DNA from: the human T2T-CHM13v2.0 reference genome, Homo sapiens
Length of the DNA stretch: 64,000 bases
Assembly (NCBI GenBank): GCA_009914755.4
Contig: CP068257.2
Span: 14,432,001-14,496,000, forward strand
Reading direction: 5' to 3'
Of this stretch, positions 17,680 through 19,010 are shown piece by piece; position 1 is the first letter of the stretch; every line of letters begins with the position of its first letter. The position numbers and the translations under genes were made by a program. The notes under the pieces are model-generated. The model was not told the DNA's origin, did no database searches, and was given only the letters and a program-made list of their open reading frames with translations.

Positions 17680-19010
17680 AAATAATGGATATGTGACTGC
17701 ACGACTGCAGCATTTGTATCCAGATAGATAATCAATTCATCTATAAACCAGCTATCAAGTAACTGTCTAAATATTTAAAATACAGTTCTTGTTTAGCTCA
17801 TTCTTAGTTTTGATCACCTTTTTTTGTTGGGTGGTGGGGAGCCCTGCTGGTCACTTTGAAAATATACTACGGTCAAATCTTCTGATATCCTGAAGGTTTC
17901 TTTCAGCTGGACTAAGCTCCCAACTCCAGGCAAGCCCAAGTTTGTGGCCTCCCGCATTAGTGCTCTTTCTATCTACCAGAGTCGACAGTATTTGTTCGGC
18001 TCAGTATCTGAGTGTAGCTCACTCCAGTTAACTAGAGTTGTTGACTTTTGCAGAAATAGAAGCAGTGGGATCCAACCGATATTTAGCTACAATGCGAAAA
18101 TGAGTGCAGTTGGTACCTGATGTCCAAGTACAATGCACTGAAGTGTCAAGATTTTCACATACTTTCTGATAAATTGATTCTCCATATTCTGTCCCATCAT
18201 TGACATTAATGTGTAGTTGAAAGTCTCCAGTCCTGTATAGCCCAGCGAGAAGTTATTCCTTGTCAGCTTTGATTTGACACTGTCAAAGGTCATCTGGTAC
18301 CCAGCAAGCCAGCCTCATCACCAAAGACAGCCAAACCATGGATTTGAAGTCCTGAAAAATAAAAGTCAACATCACAACCAAAGTGTATATATTCTCCTTG
18401 TAACAGGACTTGATCTTATCACTTTTCTCTCCTGTGTTTGGTGAGAAGGTAGTATCTAATGTCAGTTTCAAACCTTGAAAAACCTGGTCTTTAACTGTGA
18501 TTTCTGTTCCCAGAGTGTTCTGTTCCCAGAGTGTTCTACTTTTCTGTGAAAGTCAGATCATAATCACACCATTTATATTTGGTCTCCAACGTCCCAGTAA
18601 TTTTACCAGTGTCTGTATGAGATGAACCAGATGTTGAGAATTCCATGCCACTGCGTGACTTTTTTTTTTTCACATCCAGTTTCACCAACCCTGAACCAAA
18701 TCCTTTGTGGAAAGTATCTCTGACAGCTATGCCAAGGTCAGCATACGATGGAGGAATACATTGGCCACACTGAGGTCTGTTTGTAGGTCACCATGGTGAA
18801 GACTTGGGAAGAGATAATCTGGTGGTCTCCAGATGGGGGGTGCTCCCACTGCTGTGCTCACAGCTGAGGCCACTGGGTTTGCCTGCTGTTGGGTCACAGC
18901 TGCCTCGACTGGAGGACAAAGTGGAGGCACATTTCCACTTGCAGCCTGAATGTTTTCCAAATGTAAAAATATTTTTGAGCTGTATTAGTCAGTGTTCTGC
19001 TTAGAAACAG
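17680..19010 (-). pseudogene. VDAC2: VDAC2 (voltage-dependent anion channel 2) processed pseudogene: intronless, multiple frameshifts and stops; 3' boundary uncertain (Alus abut its 3' UTR)
   Basis: The minus-strand translation gives one uninterrupted cDNA-like stretch: 5' UTR, then ATGGTGACCTACAAACAGACCTCAGTGTGGCCAATGTATTCCTCCATCGTATGCTGACC (human VDAC2 starts [21 protein letters not shown]). Further on it reads [62 protein letters not shown]…, [29 protein letters not shown]… and [19 protein letters not shown]…[32 protein letters not shown]…[23 protein letters not shown]. The C-terminus …CGRPQTWACLELGA* corresponds to GGHKLGLALELEA*. VDAC2-specific residues ([49 protein letters not shown]) separate it from VDAC1 and VDAC3. 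The six-frame ORFs at 18087-18293, 18283-18471 and 18727-18960 (all minus) are its pieces. Confidence 0.85.

What the first reader, a model, noticed from the sequence alone, without database searches (positions are those of the whole stretch)
17680..19010. VDAC2 processed pseudogene sitting between an old L1 and an Alu cluster
The minus strand here translates as an almost complete VDAC2 cDNA from the 5' UTR and start codon through to the stop codon, with no introns. Human VDAC2 has about ten exons, so this copy came from retrotransposed mRNA rather than from the real locus. Residues specific to VDAC2 ([41 protein letters not shown]) separate it from VDAC1 and VDAC3. Sequence decay: it has decayed with several frameshifts and stops, an A11 homopolymer in place of the ..KTKSCSG.. 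codons, and an internal 16-bp tandem duplication (tgttcccagagtgttc twice, 18505-18536, plus strand). Surroundings: its 3' UTR runs directly into two minus-strand Alus (17113-17668). A (GATA)n tract and a plus-strand Alu follow its 5' end. It is interesting as a dated retrocopy and as a possible read-mapping confounder for VDAC2.
Basis: partly seen in the sequence, partly recalled or inferred. Interest (0 to 1): 0.55.

Follow-up and report, generated by a model that had tools for sequence, protein, structure and literature searches.

The report
Old, decayed VDAC2 processed pseudogene
This is an ordinary dead retrocopy of the mitochondrial porin gene VDAC2: an intronless, heavily mutated copy made from spliced mRNA roughly 60-85 million years ago, which has since lost its 3' end and is of a kind already catalogued in the human genome.

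Summary
Window ~18960-17677 (minus strand) is an intronless copy of VDAC2 mRNA running from exon 1 of the 5'UTR, through the ATG (18794-18792) and the stop (17914-17912), into the first ~235 nt of the 3'UTR. It aligns to a VDAC2 cDNA as one block (83.3% over 1160 columns). In primate VDAC2 genes the same blocks are 10 exons split by introns of 92-7231 nt, and all nine junctions are fused here.

It scores about 460 bits against VDAC2 and about 350 against VDAC1 or VDAC3. It carries the VDAC2-only N-terminal extension and both VDAC2 UTRs.

It is dead and has drifted neutrally. There are about 9 frame-breaking indels and one W->stop codon, and CDS substitutions fall 30:32:31 over the codon positions.

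It keeps the ancestral base at about 12 non-CpG sites that changed on the simian stem. K2P to the inferred ancestor is ~0.16, so it is roughly 60-85 Myr old.

- The 5' edge is ~18960, not 19010.
- The 3'UTR is incomplete. There is no poly(A) tail and no TSD.
- A 3'-truncated Alu abuts a much older L1, most likely through a later deletion.
- As a read-mapping confounder it is weak.

Four human VDAC2 pseudogenes are already annotated, and VDAC2P1 has the same 1284-bp size. This is ordinary and of low interest.

The parts
17677..18960 (-). VDAC2 processed pseudogene (whole homologous span, 1284 bp): 5'UTR exon 1 through the first ~235 nt of the 3'UTR, no introns
   Evidence: One blastn HSP to cDNA L001, 83.3% over 1160 columns. 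Nine collinear, abutting or overlapping blocks (exon 1 and exons 3-10) against the orangutan gene L006; exon 2 is too diverged for that search and is covered by the cDNA alignment. Full alignment. The 5' end is secure to 18927 and plausible to about 18960.
18795..18960 (-). 5'UTR remnant (exon 1 plus the start of exon 2, junction fused). It derives from a CpG island and is heavily decayed.
   Evidence: Window 18927-18819 matches L006 2672-2780 at 71.6%. 23 of 44 ancestral CpG positions have changed. The exon 1-exon 2 intron (195 nt in the orangutan gene, exon coordinates) is absent.
17912..18794 (-). Disabled VDAC2 coding region. ATG at 18794-18792. The original stop position is now TAG at 17914-17912.
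   Evidence: Deletions: -2 at 18761/18760; -1 at 18397/96, 18315/14 and 18032/31; -7 and -1 at 17998-17994; -1 at 17931/30. Insertions: +3 (A11 run 18670-18660); +7 net at 18529-18523; +2 at 18239-18238. TGG>TAG stop at 18538-18536. Substitutions by codon position 30:32:31, with 15 synonymous and 62 non-synonymous codon changes.
18502..18537 (-). Perfect 16-bp tandem duplication inside former exon 5 (net +7 nt against the parent). It is younger than the copy itself.
   Evidence: TRF: period 16, 2.2 copies, 100% match. The parent has GAACACTGATAACACTCTGGGAACAG at this place.
17677..17911 (-). First ~235 nt of the VDAC2 3'UTR. At least ~235 nt more, up to the conserved AATAAA, is missing, and so is the poly(A) tail.
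   Evidence: Window 17989-17677 matches L006 22774-23085. AATAAA lies at L006 ~23298. The rest of the 3'UTR and downstream flank has no match anywhere in the 64 kb.
17360..17668 (-). Alu1, full length, with a (TAAA)n-type tail. It is flanked by 11-bp target-site duplications: AAAGATACGTA (17679-17669) and AAAGATATTTA (17359-17349). It inserted later into the pseudogene's 3'UTR.
   Evidence: Sequence read; tail found by TRF. Non-CpG divergence is 11.9% from an Alu consensus built from 30 copies. The downstream TSD copy still matches the parental 3'UTR (TGTATTTA).
17113..17348 (-). Alu2, the oldest of the three Alus. Its 5' end is complete but it is cut at consensus position ~235-243, with no tail. 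It sits in the 3'UTR at the position of L006 ~23093.
   Evidence: consensus span 1-235, 17.5% non-CpG divergence.
11340..17112 (-). Very old L1 running from mid-ORF1 to its 3' end, sense on the minus strand, with nested Alus. It begins abruptly at the Alu2 breakpoint. The lower coordinate is approximate.
   Evidence: ORF1p-like: Pfam PF02994 E=0.083 and PDB L1 ORF1p E about 0.05. tblastn with human ORF2p (query validated): aa 343-553 at 14728-14084 and aa 688-889 at 13682-13086, 30-31% identity, E 1e-7 and 4e-12. The 3' end was read by eye.
19019..19100 (.). (AGAT)n / (ATCT)n microsatellite upstream of the pseudogene
   Evidence: TRF: period 4, 19.8 copies.
19112..19405 (+). Plus-strand Alu with an A15 tail (19391-19405). 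It is the youngest of the three Alus.
   Evidence: Non-CpG divergence from the consensus is 8.2%.

Best explanation
A spliced VDAC2 mRNA was reverse-transcribed and inserted into an AT-rich, repeat-rich part of the human genome. By inference this was done by the L1 machinery, through target-primed reverse transcription.

The insertion happened on the lineage leading to primates, before most simian-stem substitutions in VDAC2, roughly 60-85 Myr ago. The copy never functioned as a gene. It has drifted neutrally and picked up frameshifts, a stop codon, CpG decay and a later 16-bp tandem duplication.

An early Alu (Alu2) then inserted into its 3'UTR. A second Alu (Alu1) inserted just upstream of Alu2 and has clear TSDs.

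A later deletion is inferred, not shown. It would have removed the 3' part of Alu2, the remaining 235 nt or more of the 3'UTR, the poly(A) tail and the 3' TSD. That joined the truncated Alu2 to a much older L1.

The element has no coding capacity. It is most probably one of the four already annotated human VDAC2 pseudogenes; its size matches VDAC2P1.
For: - Intronless: it aligns to the cDNA as one HSP. The same blocks are 10 exons with AG/GT borders in eight genomic loci, and all nine junctions are fused.
- VDAC2 rather than VDAC1 or VDAC3. Pfam Porin_3 E=1.3e-59.
- Different locus from the parent: nothing in the window matches VDAC2 introns or flanks apart from Alus.
- Neutral decay: substitutions by codon position are 30:32:31, with 15 synonymous and 62 non-synonymous codon changes. 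32 of 62 CpG positions have changed, against 12.5% of non-CpG positions.
- Age from divergence: K2P 0.162 to the inferred ancestor over all sites; non-CpG JC 0.137; CDS 0.117.
- Age from site patterns: at simian-derived sites the copy is ancestral at 14 and derived at 1, and that one is a CpG C>T. With tarsier and rodent added the count is 9 to 1, and at ape-derived sites also 9 to 1. The copy keeps the C-rich 3'UTR tract of non-primates where lemur, tarsier and simians all have a T-run.
- Alu order: non-CpG divergence is 17.5% for Alu2, 11.9% for Alu1 and 8.2% for the plus-strand Alu.
- Human origin: four human gut or oral metagenome contigs are 100% identical over 585-923 bp.
- Already catalogued: four human VDAC2 pseudogenes are listed, and VDAC2P1 is 1284 bp on the minus strand (PMC10286422).
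Against: - Two canonical hallmarks of a processed pseudogene, the poly(A) tail and the flanking TSDs, are absent. The mode of integration therefore rests on the fused junctions alone.
- The deletion that explains the missing 3' end is an inference. No orthologous locus could be examined.
- The age signals are not fully concordant. At sites derived in all crown primates the copy is derived at 3 and ancestral only in one pyrimidine tract, which is a mutation-prone sequence. A 4-nt indel shared with one non-primate shows that homoplasy occurs in this UTR.
- The species of several comparison assemblies were not verified.
Confidence: 0.95

Rival explanations
1. Tripartite chimeric retrocopy. The L1 reverse transcriptase started on an L1 RNA, switched template to an Alu RNA and then to VDAC2 mRNA. 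On this reading VDAC2, Alu2 and L1 were inserted together in one event, and nothing was deleted.
For: All three parts lie head to tail in the same orientation. The L1 is 5'-truncated, Alu2 has a complete 5' end, and VDAC2 reaches its 5'UTR. Alu2 divergence (17.5% non-CpG against an AluS-like consensus) is close to that of the pseudogene (12.5-13.7%). A short AT-rich similarity (AGCTCA..AAAAATATTT..AC) occurs at the VDAC2 5' flank and after the presumed L1 3' end.
Against: That similarity is no better than chance. In the Smith-Waterman scan of the window, 117 of 3196 segments scored 22 or more (49 scored 24 or more) against the 5' flank. The L1-end site, which a hand calculation scores at about 18-22, is not among the 40 best segments listed. 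No gapless match was found either. The L1 looks far older than the other parts: about 30% ORF2p identity, against 39-68% and 73-84% for other L1s in the same window, while the pseudogene keeps 75% protein identity.
Confidence: 0.05
2. The copy was 3'-truncated from the start, either by use of a proximal polyadenylation site or by internal priming near L006 ~23093. On this reading no deletion of VDAC2 sequence ever occurred.
For: Homology stops in an A/T-rich stretch (CATTATTTAAATGTATTTAA).
Against: There is no canonical AATAAA or ATTAAA upstream of that point in any of the species compared, and this part of the 3'UTR is conserved right through it. No A-run follows the last homologous base; an Alu 5' end follows it directly. 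Alu2 itself lacks its 3' end and tail, so some deletion has to be invoked anyway.
Confidence: 0.1
3. A DNA-level (segmental) duplicate or fragment of the VDAC2 gene, or a copy of VDAC1 or VDAC3.
For: None beyond membership of the porin family.
Against: All nine exon junctions are fused and no intron sequence is present. Scores are about 460 bits for VDAC2 against about 350 for VDAC1 or VDAC3. Both VDAC2 UTRs are present.
Confidence: 0.01
4. The copy is dead as a gene but is transcribed and acts as a regulatory RNA (for example a miRNA sponge or antisense RNA) affecting VDAC2.
For: The literature reports very weak expression of VDAC2P1 (0.03-0.07 TPM in some connective tissues) and a proposed role for VDAC2P2 in atrial fibrillation (PMC10286422; PMC8071448).
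Against: Decay is even over the codon positions, and divergence is at the level of the neighbouring repeats, so there is no sign of constraint. The four VDAC2 pseudogenes are reported in heterochromatin or Polycomb-repressed chromatin. Nothing in the sequence suggests a promoter; the CpG-island-derived 5'UTR has lost its CpGs. No Rfam family matches.
Confidence: 0.03

Closest known systems
Annotated human VDAC2 processed pseudogenes VDAC2P1-VDAC2P4 (especially VDAC2P1, chr21:17,466,509-17,467,792, 1284 bp, minus strand; PMC10286422)
   Same: Same parent gene and same kind of element. The homologous span measured here (17677-18960) is 1284 bp on the minus strand, the same size and strand as listed for VDAC2P1. 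The window is AT-rich (35% GC) and repeat-rich, which fits the heterochromatic, gene-poor setting reported.
   Different: Identity with VDAC2P1 could not be tested, because no human reference coordinates are available through these tools and my 5' boundary is only approximate. VDAC2P2 (1200 bp) and VDAC2P3 (1388 bp) are also on the minus strand and cannot be formally excluded.
Classical L1-mediated processed pseudogenes (for example the 13 VDAC1 pseudogenes, or ribosomal-protein pseudogenes)
   Same: Intronless copy of a spliced, highly expressed housekeeping mRNA that includes the UTRs. It was dead on arrival, decayed neutrally, and was later hit by Alu insertions.
   Different: It lacks the poly(A) tail and the TSDs because its 3' end has been lost. 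It is older than most recognisable human processed pseudogenes (about 14% substitutions from the ancestral mRNA).
Chimeric retrogenes made by L1 reverse-transcriptase template switching (U6-L1, Alu-L1 and mRNA-L1 chimeras; Buzdin et al. 2002-2003, cited from memory)
   Same: Head-to-tail arrangement in one orientation of an mRNA copy, an Alu and a 5'-truncated L1.
   Different: No shared TSD above chance, and the L1 part appears much older than the other two. The resemblance is most likely an accident of a deletion.

Membership tests
Processed pseudogene (retrocopy) | Collinear with the spliced mRNA; all introns absent | tested here: met
   Nine of nine junctions are fused, and the largest indel is 7 nt. 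Parental introns of 92-7231 nt are present in eight mammalian loci.
Processed pseudogene (retrocopy) | Contains UTR sequence and begins near the transcription start | tested here: met
   Non-coding exon 1 and 235 nt of the 3'UTR are present.
Processed pseudogene (retrocopy) | 3' poly(A) tract | tested here: not met
   Homology ends about 205 nt upstream of the conserved AATAAA (L006 ~23093 against ~23298), and an Alu 5' end follows directly. The rest of the 3'UTR is not in the window. This is explained as secondary loss, which is an inference.
Processed pseudogene (retrocopy) | Flanking target-site duplications | tested here: not met
   The 5' flank has no second copy in the window above chance. 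The 3' flank is presumed deleted.
Processed pseudogene (retrocopy) | Lies at a locus unrelated to the parent gene | tested here: met
   The flanks are Alu, L1 and a microsatellite. Nothing matches VDAC2 introns or downstream sequence apart from Alus. The parental loci have a methyltransferase-domain gene (Pfam Methyltransf_3) next to them.
Processed pseudogene (retrocopy) | Disabling mutations and neutral substitution pattern | tested here: met
   About 9 frame-breaking indels and one premature stop. Codon positions 30:32:31.
VDAC2 (as against VDAC1 or VDAC3) as parent | Highest similarity to VDAC2; VDAC2-specific N-terminal extension; VDAC2 UTRs | tested here: met
   464 bits for VDAC2 against 350 for VDAC1 in the PDB. 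VDAC2 about 460 bits and 75% identity, against VDAC1 and VDAC3 at about 350 bits and 57-61%. The extension [11 protein letters not shown] aligns to MATHGQTCARP. UTRs match.
HGNC locus VDAC2P1 | Position chr21:17,466,509-17,467,792 (GRCh38), 1284 bp, minus strand | not testable with these tools
   Only size (1284 bp by my boundaries) and strand agree. No human reference genome could be searched. Human origin is supported by identical host-DNA contigs.
Template-switch chimeric retrogene | One TSD pair flanking the whole composite | tested here: not met
   The candidate AT-rich repeat is within the chance distribution.
Template-switch chimeric retrogene | All components of equal age | tested here: not met
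   L1 ORF2p identity is about 30%, against 39-84% for other L1s in the window. The pseudogene and Alu2 are much less decayed. This is a rough test, made without family consensus sequences.

The most novel reading that the evidence does not exclude
The VDAC2-Alu2-L1 block is a single tripartite chimeric retrocopy made by template switching of the L1 reverse transcriptase, rather than a pseudogene that later lost its 3' end. A second, milder possibility is that the copy predates the crown-primate ancestor, which would make it a presence/absence marker for deep primate or euarchontan relationships.
Probability: 0.06. Interest if true: 0.3.

Novelty: already known. Interest (0 to 1): 0.1.

Why it matters
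It matters little. The human genome holds thousands of processed pseudogenes of highly expressed housekeeping genes, and the VDAC2 pseudogenes are already named and tabulated.

The practical points are modest:
1. At 83% identity, with no exact match longer than 27 nt, the copy should not disturb VDAC2 read mapping or variant calling with normal read lengths.
2. Its age (before the simian radiation, about 60-85 Myr) and its nested Alu insertions give a small worked example of how a retrocopy can be dated both by divergence and by shared-derived sites of the parent gene.
3. Annotators should note that the copy is 3'-truncated and lacks a poly(A) tail and TSDs.

Tried and rejected
- Rfam over 14-22 kb and over the whole window: no family, so the Alus are not picked up as 7SL.
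- Pfam on three-frame translations of 9500-17200: only a sub-threshold L1 ORF1 hit.
- PDB phmmer with single-frame translations of the L1: ORF1p at E about 0.05 only, and nothing for the RT segment. That found the old L1.
- Search for the missing 3'UTR, or anything downstream of VDAC2, elsewhere in the window: none.
- TSD search with the 5' flank, both gapless with up to 3 mismatches and by Smith-Waterman scan: nothing above background. This rejects TSD support for the chimera idea.
- The 5' flank (19700-19406 and 19020-18961) looks from memory like the 3' end of a MaLR LTR (it ends ...ACTAATACA). No other copy exists in the window or in three VDAC2 loci, so this stays untested.
- The Logan cDNA contig L001 starts with an inverted copy of exon 1, an assembly artefact. 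Orangutan exon 1 was used instead.
- I did not run the large representative-protein search, structure prediction or fold search. The homology is unambiguous at sequence level.
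Full report
**What is there**

Read on the minus strand, window ~18960-17677 is a copy of VDAC2 mRNA. Three-frame translation shows VDAC2-like peptide hopping between frames. A stitched conceptual protein hits Pfam Porin_3 at E=1.3e-59.

Against solved structures it scores 464 and 463 bits with mammalian and human VDAC2 (7nie_C, 9eih_E). 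It scores 381 bits with zebrafish VDAC2 and about 350 with human or mouse VDAC1. In the 5.8-billion-protein search every top hit is VDAC2: mammals reach about 450-462 bits at 75-76% identity. VDAC1 and VDAC3 first appear at about 347-362 bits and 57-61% identity. The alignment includes the N-terminal extension that only VDAC2 has (MATHGQTCARP, here [11 protein letters not shown]).

**Retrocopy test**

I obtained a human-like VDAC2 cDNA contig (L001). I also obtained VDAC2 genomic loci from six simian assemblies (L002-L007), a mouse lemur (L008), two non-primate eutherians (L009, L010) and a tarsier (L011), plus a rodent-like cDNA (L012).

The cDNA maps to the orangutan locus as ten exons with AG/GT borders and introns of 92-7231 nt. 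The same structure holds in all the other genomic loci.

The window aligns to the cDNA as one HSP: 18830-17693, 83.3% over 1160 columns, 1190 bits. Against the gene it aligns as collinear blocks that abut or overlap by a few bases in the window but are kilobases apart in the gene.

In the base-level alignment all nine junctions are fused, including the one between non-coding exon 1 and exon 2. No indel exceeds 7 nt. Apart from Alus, nothing in the 64 kb matches VDAC2 introns or downstream flank.

**State of decay**

- The ATG is intact (18794-18792).
- Deletions follow: 2 nt at 18761/60; 1 nt at 18397/96, 18315/14, 18032/31 and 17931/30; and 7+1 nt at the former exon 9-exon 10 junction (17998-17994).
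- Insertions: +3 A, which creates the A11 run 18670-18660 (V-K-T-K-S becomes V-K-K-K-K-S); +2 at 18239-38; and a net +7 at 18529-23.
- There is a TGG>TAG stop at 18538-36. The old stop codon is TAG at 17914-12.
It lies where the parent has GAACACTGATAACACTCTGGGAACAG. Since it has no mismatch, it is much younger than the copy.

I inferred the ancestral mRNA as the commonest base among four votes: a simian consensus, the mouse lemur and the two non-primate eutherians. Against it the copy differs at 14.4% of 1269 sites (K2P 0.162). Of the ancestral CpG positions, 32 of 62 have changed, against 12.5% of the others.

CDS substitutions are spread 30:32:31 over the codon positions, with 15 synonymous and 62 non-synonymous codon changes. 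That is the signature of a sequence that was never under protein-level selection.

**Age**

Distances from the copy to simians, lemur and one non-primate are nearly equal (0.178-0.190). That places the branch point deep in the tree.

- Simian-derived sites (apes and the second simian share a base that differs from lemur and both outgroups): the copy has the ancestral base at 14 and the derived base at 1. That one is a C>T at a CpG. About 12 of the 14 are clean non-CpG sites; one (G>A) lies in a CpG of the simian sequence.
- With tarsier and rodent added: 9 ancestral to 1 derived on the simian stem, and likewise 9 to 1 at ape-derived sites.
- Sites derived in all crown primates: the copy is derived at 3. 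But in a 3'UTR pyrimidine tract it keeps the C-rich form seen in the rodent and both other outgroups (GCTCCCCACCACCC). Lemur, tarsier and simians all have a T-run there. The tract is mutation-prone, and a 4-nt indel shared with one outgroup shows homoplasy in this UTR, so I treat this as suggestive only.

I apply the usual ~2.2e-9 substitutions per site per year (established practice, not computed here). A branch length of 0.137-0.162 then gives about 60-75 Myr.

Taken together, the copy arose before most of the simian stem, near the base of primates, roughly 60-85 Myr ago.

**Boundaries and surroundings**

*5' side.* Homology to exon 1 is secure to 18927 and plausible to about 18960. The sequence is a decayed CpG island: 31.6% of sites have changed, including 23 of 44 CpG positions. 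Upstream lie (AGAT)n at 19019-19100 and a plus-strand Alu at 19112-19405 with an A15 tail.

*3' side.* Homology to the 3'UTR stops at 17677, which corresponds to L006 ~23085-23093. The conserved AATAAA is at L006 ~23298.

*Alu1* (17668-17360) has a (TAAA)n tail. It is flanked by 11-bp TSDs, AAAGATACGTA and AAAGATATTTA. The downstream TSD copy still matches the parental TGTATTTA.

*Alu2* starts immediately after it at 17348 with an intact 5' end, but stops at consensus position ~235-243 (17113) without a tail.

*The L1.* From 17112 downward the minus strand reads as an L1, from mid-ORF1 onward:
- ORF1p similarity is weak (E 0.05-0.08).
- ORF2p residues 343-889 map to 14728-13086 at about 30% identity (E 1e-7 and 4e-12). 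The query protein was validated against the PDB.
- Other L1s in the same window keep 39-84% identity.

Non-CpG divergence from an Alu consensus built from 30 copies is 17.5% for Alu2, 11.9% for Alu1 and 8.2% for the plus-strand Alu. This gives the order of insertion.

**The missing 3' end**

The distal 3'UTR, the poly(A) tail and the 3' TSD are nowhere in the window. The 5' flank has no second copy above background.

The most economical history has four steps:
1. The retrocopy inserts.
2. Alu2 inserts into its 3'UTR.
3. Alu1 inserts at the same AT-rich site.
4. A deletion with one breakpoint inside Alu2 and the other inside the old L1 removes everything between.

Step 4 is inferred, not shown.

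I considered that VDAC2, Alu2 and L1, which all point the same way, might be a single template-switch chimera. There is an AT-rich similarity between the VDAC2 5' flank and the sequence after the presumed L1 3' end. In the scan, however, 117 of 3196 window segments scored 22 or more against the 5' flank. The L1-end site, which I score by hand at about 18-22, is not among the 40 best listed. The L1 is also clearly older than the other two parts. I give the chimera about 5%.

A copy truncated from the start, by a proximal poly(A) site or internal priming, gets about 10%. There is no signal and no A-run at the end point, and Alu2's own truncation needs a deletion anyway.

**Identity and context**

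Four contigs from human gut and oral metagenome assemblies are 100% identical to window 18415-17475, including the 3'UTR-Alu1 junction. This is host DNA, so the window is human.

The literature lists four human VDAC2 pseudogenes. VDAC2P1 (chr21:17,466,509-17,467,792) is 1284 bp on the minus strand, the same length and strand as the span I measured. It is described as heterochromatic and barely expressed, at 0.03-0.07 TPM (PMC10286422).

I could not test the coordinates, and my 5' edge is approximate. The match is therefore a lead, not a proof. VDAC2P2 and VDAC2P3 remain possible.

**Read mapping**

The longest exact match to the parental mRNA is 27 nt. The best 50-, 100- and 150-nt windows are 98%, 94% and 90.7% identical. 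Cross-mapping of normal reads should be negligible.

**Verdict**

This is a correctly recognised, ordinary and already catalogued kind of element: an ancient, dead, 3'-truncated VDAC2 processed pseudogene with later Alu insertions. It is of low interest.

Noticed in passing
window 51102-55289 (minus strand): Nearly full-length, comparatively young L1. By tblastn, ORF1p is 73-80% and ORF2p 71-84% identical to human L1 proteins, covering ORF2p residues 1-869 and 965-1275.
   Followed up: no
window 23262-25219 and 27537-29209: Two further L1 ORF2 remnants of intermediate age (35-68% identity). The second contains a short piece in inverted orientation at 29028-29209.
   Followed up: no
window 12063-12210 and 14199-14346: A 143-148-nt direct repeat at 96-97% identity, 2136 bp apart, inside the very old L1. 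It covers part of the ORF2 reverse-transcriptase region. It is far younger than the L1 itself, which suggests a later local duplication or gene conversion.
   Followed up: partly
window 17669-17679 and 17349-17359: The Alu1 TSD ends exactly where Alu2 begins. Two Alus therefore used essentially the same TTT|AAAG target site in the pseudogene's 3'UTR at different times.
   Followed up: partly
window 18961-19020 and 19406-19700 (minus strand): The sequence interrupted by the plus-strand Alu and the (AGAT)n tract ends in ...CTGACTAATACA. From memory it resembles the 3' end of a MaLR (MST/MLT1-type) LTR. No second copy was available to test this.
   Followed up: partly
L001 1-95: The Logan VDAC2 cDNA contig begins with an inverted copy of exon 1. 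This creates a spurious 14-residue N-terminal extension in protein P0002. It is an assembly artefact, not an isoform.
   Followed up: yes
L001 ~1184 against L006 23027-23031: The human-like cDNA lacks 5 nt (TCGAA/TTGAA) of the 3'UTR. These 5 nt are present in the orangutan, gibbon-like, second simian, tarsier, lemur and non-primate sequences, and in the pseudogene. This is either a human-lineage deletion or a contig error.
   Followed up: no
whole window: GC content is 35%. No Rfam family reaches the gathering threshold anywhere in the 64 kb. The composition is that of a gene-poor, L1-rich region.
   Followed up: no
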